Source of the DNA: Eledone cirrhosa
Lineage: Eukaryota
Assembly: GCA_964016885.1 (NCBI GenBank)
Contig: OZ024740.1
Location: 128,154,001 to 128,218,000, forward strand
Direction of reading: 5' to 3'
Length of the DNA stretch: 64,000 nucleotides
Shown here piece after piece: positions 776-64,000 of the stretch; the stretch's first letter is position 1; each line of letters begins with the position of its first letter. The notes under the pieces were generated by a model. It was not told where the DNA came from. It saw only the letters and a program-made list of their open reading frames with translations, and did no database searches. The position numbers and the translations under genes are program-made.

Positions 776-3030
776 ATCATCATCATCATCATCATCGTTT
801 ATCCATTATCATCATCCATCTTCCACACTAGCATGATTTGGATGGGTTTGTCCCATTTGAGGCAAGATTGGTCGAGTGGCCATGTCTCGCTCATATAGAA
901 CTGTTTCTGGCAGGTTCTTTTATGGCTGGATGCTCTTCCTTACACAACCACTTTACAGAGTTCACTGGGTGCTTTTTGTTGTGTCACCTACATGGCCATA
1001 ATACAGTGTGTATTGGATGTTCTGTGGTACCAACATGACTTTACAGAGAAAGGGTGGTGTGGGCAGAAGTGGGTGGATGGGTACGGGTGTGGGATGGGGT
1101 GTATATTGAGTTAACAGATGCCTCCTGATTGTAGGTTTAAGTTTGTACACAAGGGAAGGCACGTTTTCTGCATTACTACATAGCACCACAGATCTTGATA
1201 CAGTGACTATGTCTTAGAGAGGTGTAAGTGAGCAAGGTCATTTTTTATCATGTTATCCAGGTTTTTCTGGGTCTACCCACTCCGTGGCTTCCATCAAATT
1301 TGATCGCCCTGCAATCAATTATACAGCTGTTGTCCTTCATACATATCACATGTCCATACCAACGCAACCCCCTCTCCTGCAAACAACATTTGATACCACT
1401 TATGCTTAGTCTATCTCTCAATTTGTTTATGCTTTGCTGTTCATGTACATTAATATTAGACATCCATCGGAGAATGCAAGCTTCATTTCTTTCTAATCTA
1501 TGCAAATCTTCTGCACACAACACCCAGGTCTCACTACCATGTAATATTGCTCTTTATATACAAGCATCATACAATCCGCCTTTCATTTTTCAAGAGAAAT
1601 CCTTTGTGGCCAACAGCGGTATTAGCTCTCTGAACGTTTTCCATCCCGTTCTAACTCTGGCACTGTACTTTCAGAATGCTCGCTTCTACTGATGATTTTT
1701 CACCCAGGTAAAAGAAAATGTCTACTATTTCTATAGACCCATCTGGGCAGTTGATTGAGCTAGTATCTAGTGGGCACTCACTACTTACTACTCCTGAGCA
1801 TCAACTACTCATAAAATCTACATTCTTAGGTATCTTGCCTGTGATCCCACTACATCTTTTATGTACCAATACTTTGCATTTGGGGCATAGAATGGAATTT
1901 CTACCTACTCCTTTCTTACACACTGAGCATGGCAATTTCCCAGAGGGCATGTGTGCCCTATTCTCCTTTCTACATATAGAACTTTAGTCTTAGACAAGAT
2001 AACTTTAAGGCCTTTTTATTCTAGGACATGCTTCTATGTTTGGAATTTTTTCTGTAGTTCAGCCATAGATTTAGCTATAGATTTATTCTATATGAGAGTT
2101 AAATCATCTTCATATAGAAATTCCCATGGGCAGCCTGTCTTAAACTGTTCTGTTATAGCCAGTAGGGCAATAATAAATAAGAGGGGTCTAAGAATGGAGC
2201 ATTGGTGAACACCTACTTTTACGCTAAATTCTTCACTATATTCATTGTTAATTCTAACCTTGCTCACTGTTCCTTTATACATGGCTTGTATAGCTCTCAC
2301 AAGCCACTCATCTATTCCTAGATTTATAAGAGCTCACCAGATAATGGTGCGGGGAATTCTGTCAAAGGCTTTCGCCAAGTCAACAAAAGCTAAGCAGAGG
2401 GGTTTACTTTTAGCCAGGTACTTCTCCTGTAGTTGTCGTACAAGGAAGAGAGCATCCATAGTACTTTTACCTGACACAAACCCAAACTGCATTTCATCTA
2501 GATCAATTTGGTCTCTACTCAGTTGTGTAACAACTCTTTCTGTGACCTTTAAGGCCTTGTCAACTAATGTAATGCCTCTATAGTTTCCTCTATCTAGGGC
2601 GTCTCCTTTGCCCTTGTAGCAGTTGACAATAATGCTGCTATGGCAGTTATTTTGTATGGCCCCATTCTGTATTACTTGGTTTACTATTCGGGTAACCATA
2701 GTATGCTCCACCATTCCAGATTCTTTCAGCATTTCAGCATCTATTTCCGAAGGCCCAGCTGCCTTGTCCATCTTCATATCTTTGATTGCCTTACTTATTA
2801 TACAACCATTAAATTTCACAACTGGTCACTCTGTTGGATCAATTTGGTGTAGACTATCTTTACCCCATTCATTCTCCTCATTTATTAGTCTCTCGTAGTG
2901 ACACTTCGAAGCTACCTTCTTATCAGTATCAGTGAGTGCAAGTATGCCATCATCATTACAGACATGCTTCTCCCCGACAATATCACAATCTTCTTTGACA
3001 CATTTCTAGCAATCGTGAACACCTCATGTA
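776..3030 (-). mobile_element. RTE-clade LINE, 5'-truncated and degenerate (RT, C-terminal region, 3' UTR, (ATG)n tail)
   Basis: Minus-strand ORFs 2334-2819 (KAAGPS, NYRGITL, QFGF, AFVDLAKAFDRIPR), 2088-2300 (GVHQ..ILRPLLF, LYEDDL) and 1248-1523 (LRWYGHV, GRPRKTW); (CAT)n at 776-797 is the tail. Confidence 0.92.
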
Positions 3031-3987
3031 CTAGGTACTATCTCAAAGAGTTTCCAAGGATGGTTAAAGAAGATTAGTCCAGCTCTGCTTTTTGGAACAC
3101 TTAAAAAGGCATGCTTGCTGGTAACAGCGAGAACCGTCCGATACATCCTGAATATCTGAGGCTGCAGGTAACGGCTTGATATTCATTTCAACAAACTTTC
3201 CAGTTAAATAACATCAATGACTGAGACTCAAAGAACAATAATAATAATTGTTTCTACTTTAGGCACAAGGCCAGCAATTACCCAGTGCATTACTGGTACT
3301 TTAATAATAGATATATATATAGAAAATAAAGTGAGTGGTAAAAAACTTTGTATGTGGTATAAGATGAAAATGTAGGTATGTATGTATATACATTTATAGA
3401 GAGAGAAAAGGCCTCTGACTTATATATGTTATGTATGTATGGACATATAAAGCCTGATGAAGCCATAGGGGCACTGTAGTGGAATATAGTATTTTAAACC
3501 AGGTGGAGCCTATGCCTCTCCAGGTCCATATATATATAAGGCAGAGGAACTGAGGATAATTAACGGCCATTATTTTGGGAGTGAGGGACTCCTAGTTATC
3601 ATTAAGACATCTGTCTAGGAAAAGGTCGCTCAGATATAAAATTTATGACTTTGCATCTAATGATTTAGACCAGTTCTACTTTTCAAGTAAATGCATTCGA
3701 TGTTCAGAGAGTGAGATTGGCCGTGTGCAAAGCCTTTCCTCACTTACACAAGTTTCAAGCACAGGCTTTGCTTGATATATGAAATATTTTGCAATGCATG
3801 GCATTGCTGGGCTAGGCAAGTCCCTAGCTGGACTGACAGGCCACATTATGGATGCTCTAAATTAAATTTCTACTAGTACTATTCTATCAACTTGATCTCT
3901 TACTACTTTTCTATTGGTCAATTCAAAACCTGTTCCCAAACACGCCTATTATATTAAATCTTTGTTTATTTTTTCAATAAACAAATC

Positions 3988-4123
3988 TCATCATTTCTGA
4001 AGACAGCATATCTATGTGAAGGTATGTATATTTCCTCTGATAGTTTGTAACATTTTTACATAGATTTATATGATATACATACCAACACACATCTATATCC
4101 TGGAAACGATCGTAAAATGATGA
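3988..4123 (+). ncRNA. Type I hammerhead ribozyme with long stem II (PLE 3'-terminus type)
   Basis: Stem I TCATCATTT/AAATGATGA; CTGAAGA at 3997; stem II includes GGTATGTATAT/ATATACATACC; GAAA at 4103; palindromic stem III ACGATCGT; GUA site. Confidence 0.85.
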
Positions 4124-4347
4124 ATCTTCTAATATAAGGAACTTGTTCTTTGTTTTTATTCATTTTTTTTATTATCTTGACTCTGTTTTCCTATGATTTT
4201 CATCGAAAATGTTTGAATGCATCTTCTCTTTTCATGATATTTGGATTACATTGAGTTCTTCATACTGTATATTTTGGTAGATTTATCTGCATATATATAT
4301 ATATATATATATATATAAGATCAAAAGATGGTTAAAAGAGTTCCATG

Positions 4348-4418
4348 TATTTTATTATGCGCATTTCAAAAACAAATATCATCATGCAATAACATTTGCG
4401 TTTTCGTCAGATAAAATA
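4348..4418 (-). ncRNA. Type I hammerhead ribozyme
   Basis: Minus strand reads TATTTTAT-CTGACGA-stem II (GCAAATGTT/GATATTTGT)-GAAA-TGCGCA-TA-ATAAAATA; 8-bp stem I and palindromic stem III. It lies in a short element with an inverted repeat 4315-4367/4445-4502. Confidence 0.85.
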
Positions 4419-4619
4419 GTGAGACATGATATGAAGGTTAAAAATGAAATGGCGCATAATAAAATACATGGAACTCTTTTAACCATCTTTTGATCTCATA
4501 TATTATTTATACTCCAGTCCTACAAACTGTAGAGTGCTACTTATCCGTATCTGCATTGCTTTATTGTACTACAATAAAACTCACCTCCTACATTATATAT
4601 ATATATATATATATGAATG

Positions 4620-5115
4620 TATTTGGCAATATACTGTATGCTTAATTAAAAACATGTTGAAGACCTTGCGCTATTGTTTTAAAGTAGCGACTATGTCACT
4701 TCTTTTTTCAACAAACAAAGCATACAGTATATTGCCAAATATACTATATATATACATTCATGCATACATCGCTATTTCAGAGCACTAATTCTAATTTTGA
4801 ATTTTTGCTGGACCGGCAATCACTGATTATTACTGGAATTCTATAGGAATCACTGATTATTACTGGAATTCTATAAGAATCCAACATTTATAATTTTCAA
4901 TAGACAAAGATGAGTGCTAAGCTCTGATGATTACCAACAGTATGAAACAGAGATATGTCAGCTTATCTCCCTTTGTTTGTTGAAAAAAGAAATAAGTGAC
5001 ATAGTCACTACTTTAAAACAAAAGCGCAAGGTCTTCAAAATGTTTTTAATTTAGCATACAGTATATTGCCAAATATACTATATATACATCGCTATTTCAG
5101 AGCACCAATTCTAAT
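4620..5115 (+). mobile_element. Short non-coding PLE-like (retrozyme-like) element with inverted + direct terminal repeats
   Basis: Inverted arms 4620-4720/4971-5075, direct repeat 4720-4794/5054-5115, internal ~31-bp tandem duplication (4818-4881), HHR at 4918, flanked by (TA)n. Confidence 0.7.
4918..4965 (+). ncRNA. Minimal type I hammerhead ribozyme
   Basis: TAAGCT-CTGATGA-t-TAC caaca GTA-t-GAAA-CA gagata TG-TC-AGCTTA; canonical core, GUC site, 6-bp stem I. Confidence 0.88.
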
Positions 5116-5171
5116 ATATATATATATATATACTCACACACATATATAGATAAAGATATATATATATATAT

Positions 5172-5540
5172 GATGATGGCTGCAACTTGTGTAAAGTCAT
5201 CACTTGATACTAAAGCATGAGCATCCATAATGTGGCCTGTCAGTCCAGCTAGGGACTTGCCTAGCCCAGCAATGCCATGCATTGCAAAATATTTCATATA
5301 TCAAGCAAAGCCTGTGCTTGAAACTTGTGTAAGTGAGGAAAGGCTTTGCACACGGCCAATCTCACTCTCTGAACATCGAATGCATTTACCTGAAAAGTAG
5401 AACTGGTCTAAATCATTGGATGTAAAGTCATAGATTTTATATCTGAGCGACCTTTTCCTAGACAGATGGCTTAATGATGACTAGGAGTCCCTCACTCCCA
5501 AAATAATGGCCGTTAATTATCCTCAGTTCCTCTGCCTTAT
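5172..5540 (+). repeat. Unclassified interspersed repeat (also inverted at ~3535-3857; diverged copy ~36533-36880)
   Basis: Shared blocks GATGGCTGCAACT, GGAAAGGCTTTGCAC, CACTCTCTGAACAT, GACTAGGAGTC; flanked by TA-rich tracts. Confidence 0.7.
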
Positions 5541-5809
5541 ATATATATATATATGGACCTGGAGAGGCATAGGCTCCACCTGGTTTATAAATACTATATT
5601 CCACTACAGTGCCCCTATGGCTCCATCAGGCTGTATATGTCCATACAATTCCATAACATAACATATATAAGTCAGAGCCCTTTTCTCTCTCTCTCTATAA
5701 ATATATATACATACATACCTACATTTTCATCTTATACCACATACATAGTTTTTTACCACTCACTTTATTTTCGATATATATATCTATTATTATTATCATT
5801 ATTATTATT

Positions 5810-6200
5810 GCTCTTTGAGTCTCAGTCATTGATGTTATTTAACTCAAAAGTTTGTTGAAATGAATATCAAGTGGCTACCTGCAGCCTCAGATATTCAGGA
5901 TGTATCGGAGGGTTCTTGCTGTTACCCTCAAGCATGCCTTTTTAAGTGTTCCAAAAAGCAGAGCTGGACTAATCTTCTTTAACCATCCTTGGAAACTCTT
6001 TTAGATAGTACCTAGTGCGCCTATGACAATCGTGACGACCGTGACTTCATGGCAGTTCCAAATCCTTTTTAACTCCCACTTTAAGTCCTGGTATTGGTTA
6101 ATTTTCTCCCTCTCCTTTTCTTGCACTCTTGTGTTAAATGGGCAGGCTACATCTACAATCAGAGACGATCTTTTTTCCTCCTCCAAAATCACCAGGTCTC
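5810..6200 (-). mobile_element. 3' end of R4/Dong-type LINE (restriction-like endonuclease) in a (TAA)n tract
   Basis: ORF 6001-6192: IVDVACPF..KEREK..YQDL..ELKRIW..V.VV.IVIGALGTI; (TTA)n runs on both flanks, the known Dong target type. Confidence 0.8.
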
Positions 6201-14250: not shown

Positions 14251-15454
14251 CCATATGCTTTTGGGTTAAATAAAGTACAGCATATCCATGCGTATCATAA
14301 GAACTGAAACCGTTGGTGATGGGAAGAGTATCCGACTGTGAGACTTTGCCACAAAAAGTCACACCCAACCCATGCCAGCTTGGAAAATTCAATGTAAAAA
14401 TAATGTTGATGATGGTGATATATGTATATGTATGGTCTTCCCTTACTACAATTGGAAATAATATTTTCGAAGCTCCAATGAGACATATAGAGTTCAGTTC
14501 TTCCAAAGCAAGTTTAATAAATTTATTGCTTGCATAATGTCATTTTTAAGGAGATTTACCATCATTCACTTTAAGCAACTGGCTTAAATTTCTCCAAAGA
14601 GAATATACATTAAAAATAGAAATAAATCCTTCATCCATAGAAAATATTATATAAGTTGCATTTGTTGAAATGGGACCATGTGTCGGATGACAGAGATGGT
14701 ATACATCATATTGAACAGGTGATCATGAATAATAAACGTTTAGGTTCTTCTAAAAATAAACTCAAACGTTTATAATATAGTATCGGGGTGGTAGATGGAA
14801 AGTATAAGGATGCCCATCATATATATATGTAAATGTGTATGAATACATATGTTCGTGTTTGTATGTTATACTCTTCTCTTCTCATTTCCCTTATTGCATT
14901 CAGCATCAGAAGCAGACATTTTCTTTATGCTCTGTATTAACAGAGATCCTGCTGCTCTGGAATCAAACATTGCATAGAACTAAAGGAATTTAGTGTCAGG
15001 AATGCCCTCTACCCATAAAATGTTTCATGCTAACTATATCAACATGAAAAAACAAAACAATATATATGCTACAAGTGCTCAGATTCGTTCACACAGCAAC
15101 AAAGAATAAACAAAGAAAATCTATTCCTTAACAAATTTAAACCAAAACTAAACGGGTTATCACCCCAATAGAATTGTCATAAAATATAAACACACATACG
15201 CACGGAATCACTACTATTAAAGACCAGAGACCAATTCTGTAGAATCAGGTTTATTCATTGACAGACCATGCCTTTGTGTGACCAACACATCCATGTTAAA
15301 CCCTGCACGTGCACACACATATATCTATATATATATGCGCACACAGAATTCACCACTGTCGGTTGCGGGGCCCAATCTACATGAAGAACTCAATGTGATC
15401 AGAATGACTTGTATTTTAATTTCACTGCCCCAACTTCTTATATTATGGAAAAAA

Positions 15455-16075: not shown

Positions 16076-16479
16076 AGGTGTAAGTGCACTAAATCCCTTT
16101 CTATCACGCTCCACTCTCCTACCCATCACAGGAAGATATGTGTATGTATATTGCTTCCACCCCCTCACTGACCAGCAGCTGGCGATTGCTAAATCTGACC
16201 TTTATAAAATAACCCACACCCCAAATAACTTCTCATTCACTACCAGAAAGGGACACAGCAGTCAACCTGTTGTTGCTACCAAGATGAAAACTGCTATGAA
16301 ATCCCACAATGAATTTTATACTTGAATTTTCAAGTCTCAAATTTTAACTCTTCGTATTATTAATTTTTCTTAATATTAATCAACATTTGAAAAGATGGCT
16401 TTTGCAGACCCATCGAAACCGGTCATTTTTTATACCCTTTATTATTTCCTTACCTTATAAAATTATGTTTTTTCACAAA

Positions 16480-16675
16480 AAAGTATTCTGTCTCTTATAT
16501 ATTCCATGTGCCATTACCAACCTCAATTTTCTCTATAACCTTCGCTTTGTGTAGAAAATTACACTTTTCATATATATATATATATGAAAAGTGTAATTTT
16601 CTACACAAAGCGAAGGTTATAGAGAAAATTGAGGTTGGTAATGGCACATGGAATATATAAGAGACAGAATACTTT
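16480..16675. repeat. Perfect 196-bp palindrome centred on a (TA)n run
   Basis: AAAGTATTCTG...ACACTTTTCA(TA)nTGAAAAGTGT...CAGAATACTTT; no mismatch seen by eye. Confidence 0.93.
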
Positions 16676-16749
16676 ATTTATCAATGTTCATTTAGTCCAG
16701 AATTAGCCGTCGAAACGGCTTGAGCTCAGCTGTCGGGGTCTTACTGGTT

Positions 16750-16788: not shown

Positions 16789-17057
16789 CAGAATAATCAT
16801 TAAGCAAATAATCGCTGCTTTCACCCTTAACGGGATCTTCTGAAACTAACAAAGTCAATCTATGAACGCAGAAGTGAATATTTCAAAAAACGTTGCTTAA
16901 ACTTTAATCTGTTATTTTAATAAATATTTGTTCTACGGTTCTTATATATTTGATATATATTTATCCTTATCGACTCCTCTTTGGATTTTAGTCTTCAAAT
17001 TTATTATCATTACTATTTGGCTCCCTCGGTTGAGCACTCTATTTACTTATATTCATC

Positions 17058-19141
17058 ATGCAGAAACAACATCTGAATATTTCTACAAAGAACATATCCG
17101 TACCAAGCAGGAAAACATACCTAAAACTCCTGATACAGAAAACAGACGCGTTCATTAAAAGGTTGCTTGGCGTGCCTTTTATTTCGATAATCAGACAACA
17201 AACAGGATAAATTTGGGTTTAAAACCTATAATAACCCTCCGTGTAACCCAGCATTGCTACCCTTCGAAAATGATGTCTTGGAACTCATACGGAGTATCAC
17301 ATTTCGGAATAGGAGCAATTCCTTCCAGTAGGACCTGAAGAATACAATTCGTTCTATTAAGGATTCCAATGCAGTGCACGTCCATTCCGACAAAACTGGC
17401 AACCTATATCAAGTGGAGCGCAGTACTTACCATCAACTACTACATAATGATGTAACTAAGGATTACCGTAAAACTAATCGGTGCGTCATTAATAAAATCA
17501 ACGATGCTGGGTTTAAAATCACCTCTGATCTCAACATCCTGGACCGGACCGAACCTCTGGACCCTATTTCTCCCCATTTTACCTTGAAGGATCACAAATC
17601 CAATTTTCCGAACAGCCCCTCTATTCGGCTTATTAACCCTACGAAGTCCGATTTATGTATACTTAGTAAAACGATTCTTGATAGAATTATACCTGAAATT
17701 GCACTGTGGAACAAGTCTTTCGCGGTGATTGATTGGTTCAACGGCATATGCACAAGGAACATTGCTGTTTTATCCAATTCGACATCAATAATTACCACTC
17801 CTCCATCACTTTACCACTTCTCCTTAGAGCTATCAATTTCGCTAAAACACTCACAGTGGTTAAGGATTTCGAAGTTGATGTCATCCTCAATGCCCGTAAG
17901 TCGGTGATTAATTTCGACGACTCTATTTGGATTAAAAAATCTAATAGTACCCCATTCGCCGTTAGTATGGGCGCCAGCGATTCTGCGGAGGTTACTGATC
18001 TTATCGGCCTTTTCCTTCTTTTCTCTATCAAGGAAGGTTTTTCCCCAACGTGGGCGGTGGTTTGTACCGTGATGATGGTCTTTTGATCATGACTAAGTGC
18101 GGCCCACGTGCTTTCAACAGGTTCAGAAAAGAATTCGCAGCCTTCTTTAAAGGCTTCAACCTCTCTATACAGGTTGAGGCCAAACTCTCGTTCGTTAATT
18201 ACCTCGACGGTACCCTCAATTTAGCGAATGGCTTGTATTACCCGTATAGAGAGTCGAATGATACGCTTAATTACATAAGTAAGCATTCTAACCATCCTGC
18301 CAGCATAACCAAGAACCTGGTAAGAAACGTTTCTTTGAGGCTTTCCCGTCTATCTACTACCGAGCATATTTTCAACGACCATTCCACATATTACAATGAA
18401 GGTCTTTTTCGGAGTGGATTTGTCAATAAGGTAGCATATACAGAGTACCAGAATAGACCTAGAAGAAATAGATCCCGACGCATTATCTGGTATAACCCAC
18501 CATATAATATGGGGGTGGCCACACCATTAGCTAAGATATTTCTATCCCTTATTACGAAGCATTTCCCCCCTTCACATAAATATAGTATACATTTTAATAG
18601 AAATACTATTAAAAATTCTTACTCTACGACTCCTAACATTGCACATAACATGACAGCTTCAAATTTAGCTAAACTACCGATCTGTAGGAACACGTGCAAC
18701 CCTGTAGTTAGTACTAACTGTAATTGTAGGAATCGGGTTGATTGCCCCCTATCCGGGAAATGCCTCTCTAGTAACATTGTCTACAAATGTAAGGTTGAAA
18801 CACCCACGTCCCGTAGGGCCTACATAGGGTTAACCGCCAATAGATTCAAGCAGCGTCTTTACATGCATACCCATTCTTTTCGTTACCCTCTAAGAAGGAA
18901 TATGACGTCACTTTCAGCTTATATCTTGAGTCTAAAAGACAACCACACCCAATATAAGTTACATTGGGATATCCTAGCTTGGGCTAGATCGTATAACGGA
19001 AATAAAAGACCATGTGACATCTGCGCCGCTGAGTCCCTGGAAATACTCTACGCCACTGACCACATCTTAAACAAAAAAATCTTAGGCAATTTTGGCTGTA
19101 AACATAAATTGCACAACATTTTCCTGTATTATATACCCTAA
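17058..19141 (+). pseudogene. PLE RT + GIY-YIG endonuclease ORF with frameshifts and a stop (probably Nematis-like clade)
   Basis: Fragments carry LKDHK.NF, RLINPTKS, GGLYRDDGL, SNHP, WYNPPY, CNCR..CPLSGKCL, VYKC..YIGLT..FKQR; collinear with the 61899 ORF. Clade name is from memory of motifs. Confidence 0.92.
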
Positions 19142-20061
19142 CGGATAGTACGATCTATACGCGGATATTTTACGTCTTGATGTGGTAGCTAAGTATATGT
19201 TATGTGTACTTATTTGCGTAGGTAAGTATATATTACCTGTATGTTTTGTGAAGGTACGTATAATTTCGCGTACTTATATTTGATTGTATATGTTATGGCT
19301 TATTTTTTATATATTCTGGTACATATGCTTTTGGTTATGTGTATAAGAGAGTTTTGCGTATGTGTGAGTATGCGGGTTCGTACGTATGTAGGGTGTGTGT
19401 ATATGTGTACTTCGTGTTTTGGTTGACGTACGTCTCCGAACATATGTGTATTTACATGTAGGTATGTGTGTGCGCTTGTTATATACGTATTTATTTATTT
19501 ATATACGTTTATTTAATATTTTGTATACACGCACACACATATTTATATGTGCGTGTATTTGTATACCTATGGCAAGTGTTTTCGCGTATGCTTGTGTATG
19601 TACGTATATGGATGCGTGTATGTATTTATTTAATTTCAATTACCTCTGTATTTTATTTACTTTATTCTTAACTCTGAAGTGGAGAATCATTCGGTTTCCT
19701 AGTTAGAATTTTAGTCTACCACTTCAGTTATACCATTTACGTGGTTTTGTCTTTGCGTGTAATTGTTCTCCACGCTCCACATATGACGTATTATCTTCGT
19801 TTTTTCTGTTCATTGCCAGAGAACGTCTCGATGAACCACCTAAAAGAATATTAGTCTACGACTTCTTTTATACCATAAACGTGGTTTTGTCTTTGCGTGT
19901 AATTGTTTTTCACCGCTCCAAATAATGACGTATTATATTCCTTTTTTTTCCCGTTCTTTGCCAGGGAACGTTTCCACGAACCAAAGTATCGTCTTCCTGT
20001 CTTCCTCCAGTTGCAACGTTTTTTGAAATATTTACTTCTGCGTTCACAGATTGACTTTGTT

Positions 20062-20112
20062 AGTTTCAGAAGATCCCGTTAAGGGTGAACGCAGCGATTC
20101 TTTGCTTAAACT
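20062..20112 (+). ncRNA. Hammerhead-like fold of PLE family A (variant core CAGAAGA; GAAA is GAAC in this copy)
   Basis: AGTTT-CAGAAGA-t-CCC gttaa GGG-t-GAAC-GCA..TGC-TT-AAACT. Confidence 0.65.
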
Positions 20113-20219
20113 TTAATCTGTTATTTTTATAAATATTTGCTCTACGGTTCTTGTATATTTGATATATATTTATCCTTATCGAGCCCTCTTTGGATTTTAG
20201 TCTTCAAATTTATTATTAT

Positions 20220-20280
<61 letters not shown>

Positions 20281-21997: not shown

Positions 21998-23227
21998 GGC
22001 TAGATCGTATAACGGAAATAAAAGACCATGTGACCTCTGCGCCGCTGAGTCCCTGGAAATACTCTACGCCACAGACCACATCTTAAACAAAAAATCTGAG
22101 GCAATTTCGGCTTGTAAACATAAATTGCATAAAACTTTCCTGTATTACAGCCCCACATTATACCCTAACGGATAATACGATCTATACGCGGATATTTTAC
22201 GTCTGGATGTGGTAGCTAAGTATATGTTATGTTTATACCATTACTTATTTGCATAGGTAAGTATATATTACCTGTATGTTTTGTGAAGGTACTTATACTT
22301 TCTCGTACGTATATTTGATTGTATATGTTATGGTGTATGTTTTATATATTCTGGTACATATGCTTTTGGTTATGTGTATACGTGAGTTTTGAGTCTGTGT
22401 GAGTATACGGGTTCGTACGTATGTAGGGTGTGTGTATATGTGTACTTCGTGTTTTGGTTGACGTACGTCTCCGAACATATGTGTATTTACATGTAGTTAT
22501 GTGAGTGCGCTTGTTATATACGTTTATTTAACTATTTGTACACACGCACTCACACGCACACATATTTATATGTGCGTGTATTTCTATACCTATGACGAGT
22601 GTTTTCGCGTATGCTTGTGTATATACGTATATGGATGCGTGTATGTATTTATTTAATTTCAATTACCTCTGTATTTTATTTACTTTATTCTTAACTCTGA
22701 AGCGGAGAATTTTTAGAATTTTAGTCTACCACTTCAGTTATACCATTTACGTGGTTTTGTCTTTGCGTGCAATTGTTCTCCACGATCCACATATGACGTA
22801 TTATCTTCGTTTTTTTCGTTCATTGCCAGAGAACGTCTCTATGAACCTCCTAAGAGAATATTAGTCTACGACTTCTTTTATACCATAAACGTGGTTTTGT
22901 CTTTGCGTGTAATTGTTTTTCACCGCTCCATATAATGACGTATTATATTCGTTTTTTCCCGTTCTTTGCCAGGGAACGTTTCCACGAACCAAAGTATCGT
23001 CTTCCTGTCTTCCTCCGGTTGCAACGTTTTTTGAAATATTCACTTCTGCGTTCACAGATTGACTTTGTTAGTTTCAGAAGATCCCGTTAAGGGTGAAAGC
23101 GGCGATTCTTTGCTTAAACTTTAATCTGTTATTTTAATAAATATTTGCTCTACGGTTCTTATATATTTGATATATATTTATCCTTATCGAGCCCTCTTTG
23201 TATTTTAGTCTTCAAATTTATTATTAT
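21998..23227 (+). mobile_element. PLE family A, 5'-truncated copy (end of GIY-YIG, 3' UTR, HHR, terminus)
   Basis: High identity to 18982-20224; ends in (TA)n. Confidence 0.92.
23070..23120 (+). ncRNA. Hammerhead-like fold of PLE family A (CAGAAGA...GAAA)
   Basis: Stem I AGTTT/AAACT, stem II CCC/GGG, stem III AGCG/TGCT; predicted CUU site after 23115. Confidence 0.7.
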
Positions 23228-23906
23228 ATATATATATATATATATACATACATATGTATACACACAATTATATTCATACATAAGTATGCATTGCCTCTAT
23301 GTGAGCATATATGTGTTCTTCTACATGTGCACATGTGATTGTGTATATGTGTATGGGTAGATAGATAGGTAATAAAAAATCATGCAACTGTATTATATTA
23401 AATTCCATTATACAAATCTTTGTTGAAGAACTAACTCTTTCCTTTAGAATTTCATTTCAATAAATATATGAAGAGCATATTGACATTTTTCTATTAAAGT
23501 ACTTAGTACTGGGGATGACTATAAATCCTATCTAGTCATGTAATTTTGACATGCACAAATGGAATTTCATTTTGATAAATCTATGGCTAAGCAAACTATA
23601 ACACTTACACCCCTCCTTTACTAGGTTTCTTTAAGTCCTCAATAGAAAAAAATGTAAAAATAGCACTTGAAGAAATTATAAGAGCATTTCTTATTATTAT
23701 AGTAGTGGGTGAAGTCTACTATGATTCAAATAACTAGTTATCTTCTTTTTATTTGCTGCTGTTAAGAATTCCTTTTGCTATAATATAAAGAATTGAAAGT
23801 GTCGATAATAGGACTATTTTAATTAAATCATATATAAGCTTCTCTTCATTGAGATAATGATGATGGTTATTAAGGATTGTTGAGATAAACTACAAAATGA
23901 AATAAT

Positions 23907-36281: not shown

Positions 36282-36879
36282 TATATATATATTTATATAC
36301 ATACACACACTAATATAAACACATATCTTTTCTATTTACAAGGACTGTAGTCTTAGCTAAGTTACCTACCTTTGAGACTTTTTGATTCCATTCTCTTCAA
36401 ATTCTGGAATTTTTCTCTATTTCTGTAGTATATTCAAATATGATGACTAGGTTGTCTACATACAAGAAATCCCATAAGCAGTCAGTCTTAAGCTCCTTCG
36501 GTATGGCATACATACATGCATATATACATACATGATGGCTGCAACTCGATTTTGAGTAATGCTATCACTTAATACTTAAGCTTGAGCATCAGGCGTTTTT
36601 GTTCTGCTAGAGACTTGTCTATGCCAGCAATATCAAATAATAAGCAATGCCTGTGCTTGAAGCTTTTTAAGAGAGGAAAGGCTTTGCACCGGGCCAATCG
36701 CACTCTCTGAACATAAAATGTATTTGCTCAAAATGACGAACTGGTCTACATCATTGGATACAAAAATTGTAGGTTTTATATCAGAGTGACCTGCTCCTAG
36801 AGAGATGTTTAATGAAGACTAGGAGTCTCTCACTCCACAAAAAAATCCCTATTGGATGGCATTTGACTCTCCTGAGATC

Positions 36880-37037
36880 CTCCACTCTTTGACAGGTCTT
36901 GTTTTTCATCCTGCAGGATCTCCAAAACTACTTTCCTCACCAAGCAAGCTTGGTGGGGTTGCCGGTTTGGTCAACCTGACCATGAACAGGTAGTACTGTG
37001 TTACATGCTACCAGTAGCGATGAAGAGTGACCTGACG
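36880..37037 (-). mobile_element. 5' portion of the RTE-derived non-autonomous family seen at 51553
   Basis: Reverse complement resembles 51555-51710 (GTCAGGTCAC..GCTACTGGTA..GGCAACCCCACC..CCTGCAGGA..CCTGTCAAAG). Confidence 0.7.
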
Positions 37038-37049
37038 TACACATACATA

Positions 37050-43005: not shown

Positions 43006-43026
43006 ATATATAAGTATATATATAAG

Positions 43027-43421: not shown

Positions 43422-43489
43422 TTTAAGTAACAGCCGTACTAAGAGTGGGAAATGAAATATCGTTTCATTTTTTCCGTTTATATATATAA

Positions 43490-46345: not shown

Positions 46346-46351
46346 AGAAGA

Positions 46352-49300
46352 TTAACTAAATTAAGGATAGTTAATATATTGATTTCTAAGGTGTATACTA
46401 CTTAGGTTTATAATATTTGAAGCGGAATTTTGAAGTTAAATAGTAGTAGAGTATTAATAATAGTATAACTAAATTAAAATTATTAACGTTATGGTATCAA
46501 TATTAGGAAATGAATTTAGTAATAGGGAAAAAACAAATAAAGTATTACATCGGTAGTAGAATATAAATTATAGGTTAACTAAATTAAAAATTATATATTA
46601 ATTTCTATAGTATATGTTAATTAGGTTTATAATAATTAAAACAGATATTGTATTTTATCTATAGTAGAATATAATTATAGGTAAACAGAAAATTAAAATT
46701 AATACATACACTTATACATATACATATATATATATATACACATATATATATATATACATATACATATATATACATACATATACATATTTTTTCAAAAATT
46801 GCAAAGAATATATTAACTAGGTATAGATCCAAAACCTATCTCAGTCTATGATTACATGACACTCTGCAATCCATCTGTATTAGGATATTAATTTTAAGCC
46901 AATTAAATTAAATTATAAATATATTTCTTTAAAGAGGTTCCCAAATATTGTTTTTCCATTGTGATATGGATGATGGACAATTGAAAGAGCTCAACTAAAT
47001 GTATATGGGTTTACAAAATCATACATATATATGTATATACATAAATATAAAATTAACACACACATACAGTACAAAAATACGAATATTTCCGTGAAAATAG
47101 GAGCAAAATTATGTAGATAAATCTACCAAGAGTTTACGGTAGTGTCCAATCCGTATGAAGAACTCAATGTAACCATATCACAATGGAAAAACAATATTTG
47201 GGAACCTCTTTAAAGAACATACCAATACCTTCTAAGGATGATTTCTTACTCCTTATGATTCAAAGAACTAACCAATTTATCAGAAGAGTTAGATGGAGGG
47301 CCTACCACTTCGATAAAAAATCTAAATATGCAGATAGGAAATATATGTATGATTTCAATACTTACAAAAATCCACCACACAACTCTTTGCTTGAAGACTT
47401 TGAGAAAGACCTTTTTAATTTAATTAAACACCTCAAATTTAAAAAGTATAAATCTGTCTTTCAAAATGACCTTGATTCTACCCTATTGGACCTAAAAAAG
47501 TCTAAAAAAATCCATGTCCACTCGACAAAACTGGTAACTTGTATCACATGGATATTGAAGATTATAATGAGTTCATATATAAAGAACTCAGGAAAAATTA
47601 TAAAAAATCTAATAATGCATCACTCACCAACATCAACAACAAAACACACAACATAGTAAAAAATCTAAACATTGAAGATAGAACTGAACCTTTGGCATTG
47701 AAAAGACCACACTTCAACCTGAAGGATCATAAATCAAACTTTAACTCAAATCCTTCTATAAGACTTATATGTCCCTCCAAATCTGATATTGGAATAATTA
47801 GCAAAAAAATGTTGGATAGAGTCATCCCACAAATAAGAAAACACGTTATTTTACCACTCTGGGAAAACACTTCCCAGGTAATTAACTGGTTTAAAATATT
47901 AGATGTAAATCTTCTGCTTCATTTCTACAATTTGATATAGATAATTACTATTCTTCTATATCACCTATACTCCTGAACAAAGCATTGATATTTGCTAAAA
48001 ATAGATCTAACTTAACTTTGGATGACATTAATATTATTACACATGCTAGACTAACACTTATTGAATTTCAGAATGAATACTGGACCAGAAACACATATAG
48101 TAATCTATTTGATATTACTATGGGTTCAAGCGATTCCGCCCAAATTACTGATCTTGTGGGCCTCTTTCTCCTTTTCAACATAAATGCCTCCTTTCCCCAC
48201 CTTAAAGGTGGTTTATATCGTGATGACTGTCTTCTTCTTTCCAACAACCTTAGCCTTTCAGAAATAGAAAAAAACAAAAAGCATATTAGAACTTTCCTTA
48301 AAGACTATTATAGTCTTCATATTACTTTTGAAAAAACAAGTAAAGTAGTAAATTTCCTAGATATAACTTTAGACTTAGCTACGGGTATCTACCAACCTTA
48401 CCATAAACCCAACCAAAACTTACACTACATACACTCACAATCTAATCAACCTAAATCTATCCTTAAAAACCTTGCATATAATATATCACTTAGAATTTCT
48501 AACCTTTCTTCTAACCAAGATGTATTTGATAAAAATGCGACCTTCTATAACGAAGCTCTAGATAGAAGTGGCCACAAAAATAGATTAGAATATATACCTT
48601 CTACTAAAAATACTATAAACATACAATCTAATATTACCAACAAACACCAAATGAAAAGTACACACCTAAATGCCACCCACACTATACCCCAAAATACCAA
48701 CTCTTCTAATATAAAGTATAGTAACTCTCAAAAAACTACTCATCATACAACTCTAATAAATGTTAATAATAAAACTCCTAATAAACAAGATAAAACACCT
48801 AAATCTACAAATCTAACTAAAAATGTGCGTGGTGAGATCATTAACATTAATCCTCCTAGTAAACATCACGATACAACCTATAAAAATAATAAACAACATA
48901 GAAACCGTAATAGACGGGTTACTTGGTATAATGCTCCATTTAATTTACAAATTAAGGATAATATTGCTAAAAAAATTTTTTATATCCTAGAGAAAAACTT
49001 CCCGCCAAACCACAAATACCATCAAATCTTAAATAGGTCTACAGTTAAATTCTCATACTCAATAACAAATAACATAAAACAAAATATAAGTGCCTATAAT
49101 GCATATAAATGTAAGAATACCATAAGTATACCACCAATACATCAAACTAACCATAATATCTCTTCAAATACAGAATTAACGAAAGGTTGTAACTGTAGAA
49201 ACAAGGCAAACTGCCCATTAAAAGGAAATTGTCTTGTTAACAACATAGTTTATAAATGTAATGTTAAAACTAAAGATTCTATTTGCTCATATATAGGAGC

Positions 49301-50507
49301 TACTTCTAACAATTTTAAGGCAAGGTTTAATACCCACAAACATAGTTTTAAAAATGCCGCACTGGCTAATACAACATCTCTAGCAGAAGAAATCAATAGT
49401 TATAAAAATAAGAATATAGAATATGATTTGACCTGGAGTGTGCTCAAAAGAGCCACCCCTTATCAAAATAATAGAAATGAATGTAGATTATGTTCCCAAG
49501 AACTATTTGAAATAATGAAATCTAAGGATATCCTATTAAATAAACGACAGGAATTAATTATATCGTGTAATCATAAACTAAGAAAAACATTTAAATATTA
49601 TAAACCTAATTAATAACATTATTTTAGAATTTAATATATAATTTAATTTAAATGTTAGTTAACCTATAAATTTAATTTAATTAAAATTTTACTACAGATG
49701 AGATTATAAAATATTGTGTAATCATAAATTGTGAAAAACTTTTAAATATCACTAATATATACTTCGTAAATTAATTTATAGATTAATTTTAATTTATTTA
49801 ACTTTTTATTAAAATTCCTTTACAGATAAAATATAACAATATATCGTGTATTCAATGACAGAGAAATAATTTTTAGTATTATAGACCTAATTAATGTACA
49901 TTTTAGAAATATATTTATAATTTGGTTTTAAATTTGGTCAACCTAAAAATTTAATTTAATTGGCTTAAAATTAATATCCTAATACAGATGGATTGCAGAG
50001 TGTCATGTAATCATAGACTGAGATAGGTTTGGGATCTATACCTAGTTAATATATTCTTTGCAATTTTTGAAAAAATATGTATATGTATGTATATATATGT
50101 ATATGTATATATATATATGTGTATATATATATATGTATATGTATATGTGTATGTATTAATTTTAATTTTCTGTTTACCTATAATTATATTCTACTATAGA
50201 TAAAATACAATATCTGTTTTAATTATTATAAACCTAATTAACATATACTATAGAAATTAATATATAATTTTTAATTTAGTTAACCTATAATTTATATTCT
50301 ACTACCGATGTAATACTTTATTTGTTTTTTCCCTATTACTAAATTCATTTCCTAATATTGATACCATAACGTTAATAATTTTAATTTAGTTATACTACTA
50401 TTAATACTCTACTACTATTTAACTTCAAAATTCCGCTTCAAATATTATAAACCTAAGTAGTATACACCTTAGAAATCAATATATTAACTATCCTTAATTT
50501 AGTTAAC
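46352..50507. repeat. ~560-bp near-perfect inverted repeat (46352-46915 / 49949-50507) bracketing the PLE family B ORF
   Basis: Arms are reverse complements with very few differences; typical Penelope inverted 5' segment. Confidence 0.9.
47183..49613 (+). pseudogene. PLE family B RT + GIY-YIG ORF, two frameshifts (~47520, ~47930)
   Basis: SLKNIPIP, RRVRWRAYHF, LKDHKSNF, MGSSDSAQITDLVG, GGLYRDDCL, WYNAPF, CNCR..CPLKGNCL, VYKC..YIGAT..FKARF; paralogous to family A with an N/T/K-rich insert. Confidence 0.92.
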
Positions 50508-51453: not shown

Positions 51454-51552
51454 TATGTGTGTGTGAGTGTGTATATATATCTTTATATATATATGTATGC
51501 GTATGTGTGTGTATGTATGTGTCTATATATATATATAAATATATATAATTAT

Positions 51553-53387: not shown

Positions 53388-53542
53388 TTCATTATTTCTG
53401 AAGACGGCATATATATGTGTTTGGTATGTATATTTAATTTTGATAGTTTGTATAATTTTGTATAATTTTGTACATAGATCTGTTGAATATGCATGCCAAT
53501 TCTAACACATATATATCCTAGAAACGATCGTTAAATAATGAA
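53388..53542 (+). ncRNA. Type I hammerhead ribozyme with long stem II (homolog of 3988-4123)
   Basis: Stem I TTCATTATTT/AAATAATGAA; CTGAAGA at 53398; GAAA at 53521; ACGATCGT; GUU site; flanks 53310-53600 resemble 3905-4170. Confidence 0.85.
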
Positions 53543-53596: not shown

Positions 53597-53635
<39 letters not shown>

Positions 53636-61898: not shown

Positions 61899-64000
61899 AT
61901 GCAGAAACAACATCTGAATATTTCTACAAAGAACATACTCGTACCAAGCAGGAAAACATATCTAAAACTCCTGATACAGAAAACAGACGCGTTCATTAAA
62001 AGGTTGCGTTGGCGTGCCTTTTATTTCGATAATCCGCGAAAAGCAGACAACAAACAGGATAAATTTGGATTTAAAACCTATAATAACCCTCCGTGGAACC
62101 CAGCATTGCTACCCTTCGAATATGATGTCTTGGAACTCATTCGGAATATCAAATTTCGGAATAGGAGCAATTCCTTCCAGCAAGACCTGAAGAATAGAAT
62201 TCGTTCTATTAAGGATTCTAACGCCGTGCACCTCCATTCCGACAAAACTGGCAACCTATATCAGGTGGAGCGCAGTACTTACCATCAACTACTACATAAT
62301 GCTGTAACTAAGGATTACCGTAAAACTAATCGGTGCGTCATCAATGAAATCAGCGATGCTGGGTTTAAAATCACATCTGATCTCAACATCCTGGACCGGA
62401 TCGAACCTCTGAACCCTATCTCTCCCCACTTTACTCTGAAGGATCACAAATCCAATTTTCCGAACAACCCCTCTATTCGGCTTATTAACCCTACGAAGTC
62501 CGATTTAGGTAGACTTAGTAAAACGATTCTTGATAGGATTATACCTGAAATTAGAAGTTTGGCCCCTCTCGCTCTGTGGAACAATTCTTTCGCGGTGATT
62601 GATTGGTTCAACGGCATATGTAACAAGGATCATTGCCGTTTTATCCAATTCGACATCAACAATTACTACTCCTCCATCACTTTACCACTTCTCCTTAGAG
62701 CTATCAATTTCGCTAAAACACTCACAGTGGTTAAGGATTTTGAAGTTGATGTCATCCTTAATGCCCGAAAGTCGGTGATTAATTTCGACGACTCTATTTG
62801 GATTAAAAAATCCAATAATACCCCATTCGACGTGAGTATGGGCGCCAGTCACTCTGCGGAGGTTACTGATCTTATTGGCCTTTTCCTTCTTTTCTCTATC
62901 AAGGACGAATTCCCCAACGCGGGCGGTGGTTTGTACCGTGACGATCGTCTTTTGACCATGACTAAGTGCGGACCTCGTGCTTGCGACAGGTTCAGAAAAG
63001 AACTCACAGCCTTCTTTAAAGGCTTCAACCTCTCTATACGGGTTGAGGCCAATCTCTCGGTCGTTAATTACCTCGACGTTACCCTCAATTTATTGAATGG
63101 GTTGTATTACCCGTATAGAAAGCCGAATGATACGCTTAATTACATAAGTAAGCATTCCAACCATCCTGCCAGCATAACCATGAACCTGGTAAGAAACGTT
63201 TCGTTGAGGCTTTCCCGTCTTTCCACCAACGAGCGCATTTTCAACGACCATTCCACTTATTACAATGAAGCTCTTGCTCGAAGTGGATTTGTCGATAAGG
63301 TAGCATATACTGAGTACGAAAATAGACCTAGAAGAAATAGATCCCGTCGCATTTGTTGGTTTAACCCACCATATAATATGGAGGTAGCCGCACCATTAGC
63401 TAAGATCTTTCTTTCCCTTATTACGAAGCATTTTCCCCCTACACATAAATATAGTAAAATTTTTAAAAGAAATACTATTAAAATTTCTTACTCTACGACT
63501 CCTAACCTTGCACATAACATCACAGCTTCAAATTTAGCTAAACTACCTAGCCGTAGGAACACGTGCAACCCGGTAGTTAGTACTAACTGTAATTGTAGGA
63601 ATCGGGCTGATTGCCCCCTATCCGGGAAATGCCTCTCTAGTAACATTGTCTACAAATGTAAGGTTGTAACACCCACGTCCCGTAGGGCCTACATAGGGTT
63701 AACCGCCAATAGTTTCAAGCAGCGTCTTTACATGCATACCCATTCTTTTCGTTACCCTCTAAGAAGGAATATGACGTCACTTTCAGCTTATATCTGGAGT
63801 CTAAAAGACAACCACACCCAATAGAAGTTACACTGGGAGATCCTAGCTAGGGCTAGATCGTATAACGGAAATACAAGACCATGTGACCTCTGCGCCGCTG
63901 AGGCCCTGGAAATACTCTACGCCACAGACCACATCTTAAACAAAAAATCTGAGGCAATTTCGGCTTGTAAACATAAATTGCACAAAACTTTCCTGTATTA
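61899..64000 (+). CDS. PLE family A RT + GIY-YIG ORF, nearly intact (641 aa open, then one premature TAG at 63822-63824; runs off window)
   Basis: Continuous ORF with all PLE motifs; sister copies have TAT at this codon and the frame continues (KLHWEILARARSYNGN..CDLC). Confidence 0.92.

What the first reader, a model, noticed from the sequence alone, without database searches (positions are those of the whole stretch)
3858..5115. Three different hammerhead ribozymes within 1 kb, each in its own short non-coding TA-flanked module
Seen: canonical-core HHRs at 3988-4123 (+), 4348-4418 (-) and 4918-4965 (+), unrelated in sequence and separated by (TA)n runs. Two have self-complementary stem III (ACGATCGT, ATGCGCAT). 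Established: PLE pseudo-LTRs and retrozymes carry type I HHRs, and palindromic stem III supports dimeric cleavage. Inference: (TA)n tracts act as landing pads for several ribozyme-bearing non-autonomous families mobilised by PLE proteins, possibly an uncatalogued set of animal retrozyme-like elements.
Basis: partly seen in the sequence, partly recalled or inferred. Interest (0 to 1): 0.8.

Follow-up and report, generated by a model that had tools for sequence, protein, structure and literature searches.

The report
Penelope transposon ends carrying hammerhead ribozymes
Three hammerhead ribozyme motifs within 1 kb each belong to a different highly repeated DNA family and are likely the end pieces of Penelope-like (Hydra-type) jumping genes that landed in the same TA microsatellite, a known behaviour, although one of them is probably a complete, uncatalogued 300-base non-coding mini-element.

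Summary
Three type I hammerheads lie at the stated coordinates; shuffles give 0.01-0.05 per 64 kb. A fourth, a relative of the first, lies at 53389-53541 and keeps its pairing. Reads show three separate multi-copy families whose common letters mostly repair the helices. The anatomy is that of Hydra-clade Penelope-like elements (PLEs): ribozyme 40-125 nt from a (TA)n end, inverted truncated copies, partial tandem, and tails made of the element's 5' end. Hydra-type ORFs lie in the same window. (TA)n targeting, hammerheads in Hydra ends and close opposite-strand hammerheads from truncated PLEs are published. Module 1 continues upstream in other copies, so it is truncated. Module 2 is two end fragments. 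Module 3 is probably one complete ~300-nt ORF-less unit (about 0.6). None meets the tandem definition of a retrozyme here; cleavage and circular RNA are untested. Extras: a conserved ~100-nt stem II in family 1, and an 830-bp inverted copy of host flank around the cluster. Verdict: new members of a known kind; interest 0.33.

The parts
3030..3857 (.). Left arm of an 830-bp inverted repeat: inverted duplicate of host flank 5219-6016, joined directly to the 5' truncation point of module 1; lacks the last ~60 nt (5160-5218) that the original keeps
   Evidence: 24 substitutions in 780 aligned bases; the ORF remnant in the right arm runs on across 6016 but the left arm is cut at 3030
3858..4178 (+). 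Module 1: 3' part of repeat family 1, 5'-truncated; likely the 3' UTR/pLTR of a Hydra-type PLE
   Evidence: second copy 53312-53603, 74% identical, ends in (TA)16; 4 contigs of run X4 continue upstream of 3857 (table 7)
3988..4123 (+). Hammerhead 1 (type I): stem I 9 bp, core CUGAAGA/GAAA, ~99-nt multi-helix stem II, palindromic stem III, predicted cut after A4114
   Evidence: (z -3.06)
4180..4290 (-). Inverted piece homologous to the 5' UTR and ORF start of the window's Hydra element B (47112-47230)
   Evidence: score 62 against 24.3 +/- 4.2; 0 of 500 shuffles; one X4 contig spans 4088-4265
4291..4317 (.). (TA)13 tract
4318..4444 (-). Module 2, ribozyme-bearing 3'-end fragment of family 2, truncated at 4444
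   Evidence: 490 reads and 22 contigs continue beyond 4444 with other letters (table 7)
4348..4418 (-). Hammerhead 2 (type I): stem I 8 bp, core CUGACGA/GAAA, 36-nt stem II, palindromic stem III, predicted cut after 4356
   Evidence: (z -0.59)
4445..4503 (+). Inverted copy of the family-2 3' end, starting at the GAAA of the ribozyme
   Evidence: 52-nt arms, 98% complementary
4516..4593 (+). Tail of family 2 behind a decayed TA run; likely the start of the next unit
   Evidence: as deep as family 2 and joined to hammerhead 2 at variable points in other copies (tables 2, 5, 5c); resembles by eye the 3' tail of Hydra-1_Crog; no significant match to the window's own PLE 5' ends
4594..4613 (.). (TA)10 tract
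4614..4719 (-). Module 3, inverted copy of the family-3 3' end
   Evidence: 4 substitutions and one 4-nt gap in 100 bases against 4972-5075
4719..4795 (+). Module 3, short direct copy of 3' end plus tail (pseudo-LTR), repeated at 5053-5115
   Evidence: 34 of 34 and 31 of 32 identical, spacing 334 and 320
4764..5083 (+). Probable complete ORF-less unit of family 3: Hydra-like 5' end (4764-4819), 30-bp tandem duplication (4818-4881), hammerhead 3, 3' end
   Evidence: contigs of other copies tile it (4749-4893, 4853-5051, 4858-5059); an organism-D contig matches 4764-4819 and goes on into a Hydra-like N-terminus (hand translation; control)
4918..4965 (+). Hammerhead 3 (type I): stem I 6 bp, core CUGAUGA/GAAA, U.U at stem II base, predicted cut after C4959; window copy decayed in stem III
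5084..5115 (+). 32-nt tail, followed by (TA)9 at 5115-5132 and a TA-rich run to 5170
5160..6016 (.). Right arm of the 830-bp inverted repeat: the original host flank (old repeats), ending at the target (TA)n
53389..53541 (+). Second copy of hammerhead 1 (GUU site), inside family-1 copy 53312-53603
   Evidence: (z -6.06; 0 of 200 shuffles)
47183..49613 (+). Hydra-type PLE ORF (element B, frameshifted); its 5' end matches 4180-4290; candidate helper lineage
61899..64000 (+). Hydra-type PLE ORF (element A; RWR, DKT, CxCX5C, GIY-YIG-like end), with copies at 17059-20225, 21998-23286 and 42939-41080

Best explanation
Three type I hammerhead motifs sit at the ends of three unrelated multi-copy repeat families that are likely the 3' ends (pseudo-LTRs) of Hydra-clade Penelope-like retrotransposons, likely reverse-transcribed one after another into the same (TA)n microsatellite by Hydra RT/GIY-YIG proteins. 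Inferred steps: the endonuclease cuts both strands in (TA)n; cDNA is primed from both ends, starting in the 'tail' (the 5' end of the next unit in a tandem RNA); most cDNAs stop early and join, which leaves inverted pairs of short 3' ends (modules 2 and 3) or a single truncated 3' UTR (module 1); each insertion leaves TA on its flanks, ready for the next. Module 3 likely holds one whole ~300-nt ORF-less unit (5' end fused to 3' end) moved in trans. The ribozymes likely trimmed precursor RNA in the active parents, as dimers or with protein help. These genomic copies are likely mostly dead: their inverted arms are predicted to block the fold of motifs 2 and 3.
For: Shown: motifs far above chance. 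Second copy of motif 1: core 18 of 18 identical, 42 of the 44 pairs formed in the window copy kept despite 9 substitutions in them (null mean 37.6, P 0.004), one two-sided change in stem I. Reads: of 7 listed variant sites in motif 1, 5 of the 6 in paired positions keep, strengthen or restore a pair; 4955 A>C (673 of 729 reads) restores stem III of motif 3; 4928 varies at the free core position. All three modules are deep in reads and contigs (X9 about 100-2460 per bin against 3.6 in the flank bin). Inverted and partial-tandem repeats and a 32-nt tail match the published PLE layout. 4180-4290 is homologous to a Hydra 5' end in the window (0 of 500 shuffles). An organism-D contig continues module 3's head into ...GNRSFKPVPVH, matching the Hydra N-terminal S[LFM]KNIP motif (hand translation; pattern S[FLM]K..P in 4 of 37260 masked 30-mers). 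Window ORFs carry the Hydra marks RWR, DKT, CxCX5C. Published: Hydra elements insert in (TA)n, carry canonical sense hammerheads near the 3' end, often with a U.U or U.C mismatch at the stem II base; a PLE protein cuts and extends both strands and starts cDNA inside the ORF start; close opposite-strand hammerheads from truncated PLEs.
Against: No module was physically linked to a full RT-EN ORF: no genome is held, and contigs and reads are short. The 3' regions of the three families do not match the 3' ends of the window's own Hydra elements, and those elements have no canonical hammerhead by my scan. Frameshift-aware protein tests of the tails against Hydra N-termini were not significant for any of 7 pieces (best 13 of 200; one of four queries was out of frame by my slip). 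The DNA test failed for the tails of modules 2 and 3. 4102 G>A (1342 of 1359 reads) breaks the base pair of stem II in family 1, and 4940 G>C in an X4 contig breaks a stem II pair of motif 3 (3 of 379 plus-mate X9 reads). No variant row fell in motif 2 among the 40 of 326 rows shown, so it has no covariation evidence, and its fold is not better than shuffles (z -0.59). The inverted orientation of 4180-4290 is not explained by the simple model. Order of insertion is not shown: arm divergences of host repeat, module 2 and module 3 do not differ (P 0.89).
Confidence: 0.78

Rival explanations
1. All three modules are members of fixed-length, ORF-less non-autonomous families (retrozyme monomers or mini-PLEs) with tandem arrays elsewhere that make circular RNAs; the window holds solo or truncated offspring.
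For: Very high depth of short end regions. Module 3 has a direct pseudo-LTR upstream of a 320-334-nt unit, tiled by contigs of other copies. In X1 the depth of family 1 falls about tenfold upstream of ~3900, where the 53-kb copy also starts. The idea that animal retrozymes are non-autonomous PLE derivatives is argued in bioRxiv 10.64898/2026.07.22.740005.
Against: No tandem of two ribozyme-bearing units at this locus. Families 1 and 2 continue upstream in other copies (table 7). Most family-3 tails stop near 4795 (X9 depth 1027 at 4786, 34 at 4805), and depth nearly vanishes at 4901-4911 (X1 767-1540 against 91568 at 4889). Heavy 5' truncation of long elements also gives deep 3' ends. No RNA evidence.
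Confidence: 0.25
2. The whole stretch 3030-5170 arose in one event: a PLE reverse transcriptase primed at (TA)n switched through three different RNAs and then folded back onto the host flank, copying 830 bp of it inverted.
For: The duplicate is joined directly to module 1's truncation point and lacks the 60 nt next to the target TA. Arm divergences are alike: 24/780, 5/166 and 1/52 (P 0.89), and the host repeat differs from element B's arms (4/562; P 0.003). PLE template jumps and self-priming are proposed in PMC3846280.
Against: The counts are too small to separate one event from a burst. Every module boundary between families is a (TA)n tract, as serial targeting predicts. No microhomology at 3857/3858 beyond one base (by eye).
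Confidence: 0.15
3. The modules are ends of non-Hydra PLEs (Neptune, Nematis, Poseidon) or the motifs are relics with no catalytic history.
For: Other PLE clades also favour microsatellites and carry hammerheads. The window copy of motif 3 is predicted not to fold (P <= 0.0015). 8 of 9 predicted retrozyme dimers did not cleave in the 2026 preprint.
Against: Two modules tie to Hydra-type 5' ends. Pair-keeping changes in families 1 and 3 indicate selection on the fold.
Confidence: 0.1

Closest known systems
Hydra-clade Penelope-like elements (Craig et al. 2021, PMC8557442; includes Hydra-1_Obim of Octopus bimaculoides)
   Same: (TA)n insertion; sense type I hammerhead close to the 3' end; short near-palindromic stem III; mismatch at the stem II base; inverted 5'-truncated copy, partial tandem and tail.
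   Different: No ORF in the modules. None of six short window motifs occurs in that paper's supplement and Hydra-1_Obim's hammerhead differs. Listed Hydra stem II arms are short; family 1 has ~99 nt. The paper reports putatively non-autonomous elements for Chlamys; I saw none for Hydra in the passages read.
PLE hammerheads of truncated elements (Cervera and de la Pena 2014, PMC4209133)
   Same: Many single, heterogeneous hammerheads per genome; pairs 100-700 bp apart on opposite strands, ascribed to truncated PLEs; palindromic helix III and proposed dimeric cleavage.
   Different: Here three families meet in one TA tract; stems I are 6-9 bp and helix III is present; G10.1-C11.1 is not kept.
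Animal non-LTR retrozymes (Cervera and de la Pena 2020, PMC7229834; Li, Clavereau and Pollet 2026, bioRxiv 10.64898/2026.07.22.740005)
   Same: ORF-less, AT-rich, type I hammerhead, unit of about 300 nt (module 3), PLE pLTR origin proposed.
   Different: Retrozymes are defined by tandem units each with a hammerhead, and by circular RNA. Here each family has one hammerhead, dispersed in (TA)n with PLE-type inverted ends; module 3 appears to keep the PLE 5' end as well.
Poseidon PLE PAc of Anolis (Frangieh et al. 2024, PMC11167929) and Adineta Penelope elements (Arkhipova et al. 2013, PMC3846280)
   Same: Tail made of the ORF start; both strands cut and extended; inverted pLTRs; internal deletions and trans-mobilisation between pLTRs.
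   Different: Other clades and targets (ATT, AT-rich). An inverted duplication of host flank around the insertion was not in the passages I read.

Membership tests
Type I hammerhead ribozyme | Core CUGANGA...GAAA...NUH with three helices, stem I open | tested here: met
   3 of 3 motifs; fourth copy
Type I hammerhead ribozyme | Helices kept by covariation among copies | tested here: met
   Family 1: 42 of 44 pairs kept, P 0.004; family 3: common read letters restore stem III. Family 2: no data among the 40 of 326 rows shown.
Type I hammerhead ribozyme | Match to an Rfam hammerhead model | tested here: not met
   0 hammerhead families among 13 matches at E<=1
Type I hammerhead ribozyme | Site-specific self-cleavage (monomer or dimer) | not testable with these tools
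   Only folding predictions: motif 1 P 0.72 alone, 0.014 in module; motif 2 0.14-0.19 alone, ~0 with its inverted arm; motif 3 <=0.0015
Hydra-clade PLE | RT-EN ORF with RWK, DKT and CxCX5C | tested here: not met
   No ORF or tblastn match in 3540-5560. Met by neighbouring elements A and B, so the modules can only be fragments or derivatives.
Hydra-clade PLE | Insertion in (TA)n | tested here: met
   other copies run into TA at 4511 (46 contigs) and 5089 (489 reads)
Hydra-clade PLE | Sense hammerhead near the 3' end | tested here: met
   predicted cut about 65, 40 and 125 nt from the family 3' ends; compare file S2
Hydra-clade PLE | Inverted truncated copy, partial tandem (pLTR), tail | tested here: met
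   modules 2 and 3; module 1 has neither in the standard form
Hydra-clade PLE | Sequence tie to an autonomous Hydra element | tested here: inconclusive
   module 1 piece matches element B's 5' end; module 3 head runs into a Hydra-like N-terminus in one contig; module 2 by eye only; no 3' end tied to an ORF
Animal non-LTR retrozyme | Two or more tandem units, each with a hammerhead | tested here: not met
   one hammerhead per family at this locus; arrays elsewhere could not be searched
Animal non-LTR retrozyme | Fixed ORF-less unit of a few hundred nt | tested here: inconclusive
   probable for module 3 (period 320-334); modules 1 and 2 continue upstream in other copies
Animal non-LTR retrozyme | Abundant linear and circular monomer RNA | not testable with these tools
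   no RNA holder listed; no inference drawn

The most novel reading that the evidence does not exclude
This genome carries several uncatalogued, very abundant ORF-less mini-Penelopes: ~300-nt fusions of a Hydra 5' end and a ribozyme-bearing 3' end (module 3 the clearest), moved in trans into (TA)n as dispersed inverted/tandem insertions and processed by their hammerheads into monomeric or circular RNA. They would be the intermediate between autonomous PLEs and tandem retrozymes, with family 1 adding a hammerhead whose stem II is a selected ~100-nt domain.
Probability: 0.25. Interest if true: 0.6.

Novelty: new member of a known kind. Interest (0 to 1): 0.33.

Why it matters
The general picture (PLE ends with hammerheads piling into TA microsatellites) is published, so the cluster itself is not surprising. 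It matters modestly for three reasons. Module 3 may give a minimal, ~300-nt natural substrate that defines the cis-signals a Hydra protein needs, and a test case for the proposed PLE origin of retrozymes outside vertebrates. Family 1's long, pair-conserved stem II is an unusual hammerhead form that Rfam misses. The inverted copy of 830 bp of host flank suggests that insertion at (TA)n can rearrange neighbouring DNA.

Tried and rejected
Rfam scan: no hammerhead family, only hairpin and microsatellite look-alikes below their gathering scores. Own genome: not held, so no genome-wide BLAST. Collection scans for short module motifs: 0 matches in metagenome contigs, genome contigs, viral contigs. 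Sequencing runs: no RNA holder listed; no inference on expression. Pfam: 0 families for 5 of 5 PLE pieces, RVT_1 for an unrelated fragment. Relaxed core scan (one mismatch): no further motif, none at the window's Hydra ends; it also missed the 53-kb copy because stem II opens with mismatches. Idea that the tails of modules 2 and 3 hold recognisable codons in the window copy: not supported (one query out of frame by my slip, correct frame printed but the test was not rerun). Idea that module 1 breaks off exactly at an ORF stop: the 30-letter upstream consensus (4 contigs, agreement 0.72) ends in a stop in all three frames by hand reading, so it is inconclusive; none of the 11 Hydra-like proteins found came from such a family. 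Splicing as the source of internal deletion: no GT at the deletion junction of element B's inverted copy. GCTC-N6-16-GAGCAC tail pattern: 2 matches, both at element A, none in the modules. The constrained fold of motif 2 and of the 53-kb copy used wrong pair lists and are disregarded; motif 2 was redone. Earlier-findings look-ups by sequence and by place were empty. Literature searches for octopus/cephalopod hammerheads, retrozymes or non-autonomous PLEs and for PLE-linked inverted duplication of flanks (0 papers) found no description of these families; subscription journals, Repbase and Dfam were not searchable.
Full report
OBSERVATION. Shuffled windows gave 0.01-0.05 motifs per 64 kb, and 4 of 2000 shuffles of the region gave one, none two. 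Stem III is a perfect palindrome in motifs 1 and 2 (duplex energies about -10 kcal/mol), not in motif 3. The modules are separated by (TA)n at 4292-4317 and 4594-4613 and end at 5115-5132; module 1 has no TA on its left. They are unrelated in 5 of 6 pairwise comparisons, with one marginal score (3 of 300). There is no ORF remnant. Rfam sees none of the motifs.

ARE THE FOLDS SELECTED? A second copy of module 1 lies at 53312-53603, 74% identical, ending in (TA)16. Its ribozyme folds with z -6.06 (0 of 200 shuffles). Over 49 listed pairs, 37 are unchanged, 5 are kept by a one-sided change, 1 by a two-sided change, 3 are formed only in the second copy, 2 only in the first, 1 in neither; the core is identical at 18 of 18 sites. 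Of 44 pairs formed in the window copy, 42 survive 9 substitutions (null mean 37.6, P 0.004; the structure was drawn from the window copy, which biases this). Substitutions fall at 12 of 96 paired sites, 10 of 30 unpaired sites and 30 of 132 flank sites. I laid 4 of 11 listed runs on 3800-5240 at 80% likeness; only 40 of 326 variant rows were shown. In motif 1, 4012 C>A (1142 of 1174 reads) and 4093 C>A (1329 of 1375) restore an 11-bp helix in stem II, 4051 and 4066 add or strengthen pairs, 3992 keeps one, 4033 is unpaired, and 4102 G>A (1342 of 1359) turns the base of stem II into C.A. In motif 3, 4955 A>C (673 of 729) restores stem III, 4928 varies at the free core position (290 of 471), 4931 T>A (170 of 472, a minority) closes the U.U, and 4940 G>C (one X4 contig; 3 of 379 plus-mate reads) breaks a pair. 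No row fell in motif 2. Mismatches at the stem II base are common in published Hydra hammerheads (file S2 of PMC8557442). So families 1 and 3 show selection on the fold, and the window copies are decayed; family 2 is untested.

THREE MULTI-COPY FAMILIES. Raw reads of organism A (X9, RAD library) cover the module bins about 100-2460 deep against 3.6 in the flank bin; summed contig depth in X1 is 1.3 x 10^4 to 1.4 x 10^6 against 5-14 for single contigs. The tool warns that this is no copy number, and RAD sites distort it, but the contrast and the spread of identities (1310 reads at 99+%, 4869 under 90%) show many diverged copies. Organism D holds pieces of all three (22 contigs).

ANATOMY. Module 2: a ribozyme-bearing 3' end on the minus strand (4444 to 4318), an inverted copy of its last 59 nt starting at the GAAA (52-nt arms, 98%), a decayed TA run and a 78-nt tail. 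Other copies go on beyond 4444 (490 reads, 22 contigs), and three other loci join the ribozyme side to the tail at different points (4367/4548, 4383/4524, 4443/4561): fixed outer ends and variable inner joints, as expected if two cDNAs primed from both sides of a cut meet. Module 3: inverted 3' end (4614-4719), a short direct 3' end plus 32-nt tail (4719-4795), then 4796-5083 with the ribozyme, and the tail again before TA. In the usual PLE model a direct pseudo-LTR upstream means that the enzyme copied a whole unit (inference), here 320-334 nt. Contigs of other copies tile it (4749-4893; 4853-5051; 4858-5059) and one joins 5075 to 4800. An organism-D contig matches 4764-4819 and continues for 246 other letters whose first 30 read, by hand and in frame with the window...GNRSFKPVPVH, like SLKNIP in element B and two database proteins and SFKNIP in Hydra-1_Obim; the pattern S[FLM]K..P occurs in 4 of 37260 masked 30-mers of the window. 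This rests on one contig. Against a uniform unit: X9 depth drops from 1027 at 4786 to 34 at 4805, and depth nearly vanishes at 4901-4911, where several contigs have other letters between ~4895 and ~4985. I put a complete ORF-less unit at about 0.6. Module 1: 3858-4178 is the part shared with the 53-kb copy (from 3907); 4 X4 contigs continue upstream of 3857, and X1 depth falls tenfold upstream of ~3900, so the copy is truncated, though many copies may be short. 4180-4290 is, on the minus strand, homologous to the 5' UTR and ORF start of Hydra element B at 47112-47230 (score 62 against 24.3 +/- 4.2; 0 of 500). One X4 contig spans the joint (4088-4265), so it may be a family trait; its inverted orientation remains unexplained.

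SURROUNDINGS. The cluster sits inside an 830-bp inverted repeat, 3030-3857 / 5219-6016 (24 substitutions in 780). The right arm is the original: a decayed ORF, which I recognise from memory as an R4/Dong-like endonuclease end, runs across 6016, whereas the left arm is cut at 3030 and lacks the 60 nt next to the target TA. [quoted passage not shown] Both show the same inverted and tandem ends at TA. Their 3' ends do not match the modules. The host looks octopus-like to me from recalled SINE and satellite sequence; this was not tested.

MECHANISM. Shown: motifs, families, repeats, TA boundaries, one homology to a Hydra 5' end. From the literature: Hydra elements insert in (TA)n and carry canonical hammerheads; PLE insertions are 5'-truncated, partly tandem, often with an inverted copy and a 30-40-bp tail; pLTR plus tail can include the first 12-22 codons; a purified Poseidon protein cuts and extends both strands, starts cDNA inside the ORF start, and its hammerhead cleaves only with protein and is not needed for insertion in vitro. 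Inferred: serial insertion of three families into one TA tract, each renewing the target; trans-mobilisation of family 3; precursor trimming by the ribozymes in active parents. Folding predicts that the inverted arm abolishes the active fold of motif 2 (P ~0 against 0.14-0.19) and that the window's motif 3 hardly forms, so these copies are likely inert. Rivals: all three are fixed-length retrozyme-like families (0.25); one chimeric event with fold-back onto the flank (0.15; arm divergences alike, P 0.89); non-Hydra parents or relics (0.1). The first two rivals concern unit length and order, and can hold together with a Hydra origin.

COMPARISON AND NOVELTY. The modules work like Hydra PLE ends but cannot be filed as autonomous members (no ORF). 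They fail the tandem criterion of retrozymes at this locus (definition). Close opposite-strand hammerheads from truncated PLEs were described in 2014, the PLE origin of retrozymes is argued in a 2026 preprint, and 235 Hammerhead_1 matches are reported for the giant squid. Searches found no description of these families, of non-autonomous Hydra elements or of flank duplication by PLEs, and six window motifs are absent from the Hydra supplement; Repbase, Dfam and subscription journals were not searched. What I saw of each paper: PMC8557442 abstract, passages, sections 6 and 11, supplement parts 2, 52, 53 and term searches; bioRxiv 10.64898/2026.07.22.740005 parts 1-3 of 5, supplements not seen; PMC4209133 and PMC11167929 parts 1-2 of 4; PMC7229834, PMC3846280 and PMC6962438 passages only.

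VERDICT. Observation confirmed; interpretation partly supported. New members of a known kind, with a probable ~300-nt non-autonomous Hydra derivative and an unusual long-stem-II hammerhead as the points worth following. Interest 0.33; the bold reading has probability 0.25 and would merit 0.6.

Noticed in passing
window 20060-20110, 23070-23120, 16800-16850 (-), 42939-42970: Hydra family A has, about 150 nt from its 3' end, a hammerhead-like stretch with core CAGAAGA instead of CUGAAGA, a U.U-based stem II and GAAA/GAAC, but no stem I; the same in the three copies aligned and not a stable fold (z +0.92). A recently spread Hydra family may have lost or altered its ribozyme.
   Followed up: partly
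window 46349-50509: Hydra element B: 566-bp inverted ends (4 substitutions in 562), no canonical hammerhead; its inverted 5' copy is internally deleted, joining 47173-47217 to 49905-49923 at a short AGAA overlap.
   Followed up: partly
window about 48590-48890: Element B's ORF carries an in-frame insert of about 95 residues rich in N, T and K between RT and the linker, recalling the N-rich inserts of Adineta Penelopes.
   Followed up: no
window 16477-16678: A 202-bp near-perfect palindrome (99%) centred on a (TA)8 tract, next to a Hydra A insertion; a decayed hammerhead-like stretch precedes it at about 16388-16432.
   Followed up: partly
window 43023-43425: A 403-bp fold-back element (84% self-complementary) between TA-rich runs.
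   Followed up: no
window 15372-15400: The ATGAAGAACTCAATGT word shared by 4246-4265 and element B's 5' UTR recurs here, shortly after a TA run; perhaps another Hydra 5'-end fragment.
   Followed up: no
window 19705-19983, 22715-22991, 41335-41606: A 139-140-bp tandem repeat inside the long 3' UTR of Hydra family A.
   Followed up: no
window 5160-5507, 36520-37039, 51550-51960: An old dispersed repeat (74-81% identity) that ends at the target (TA)n of the cluster; it looks RTE-derived by recall.
   Followed up: no
window 3243-3303: The first 60 nt of a SINE-like repeat (copies at 23901, 27916, 39996, 59876) inserted in the AAT run of the left arm only, so after the duplication.
   Followed up: no
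window 17999-19141, 42345-42947, 47159-49613, 61887-63824: Pfam-A gives no family for any of 5 Hydra ORF pieces, so such elements escape routine domain annotation.
   Followed up: yes
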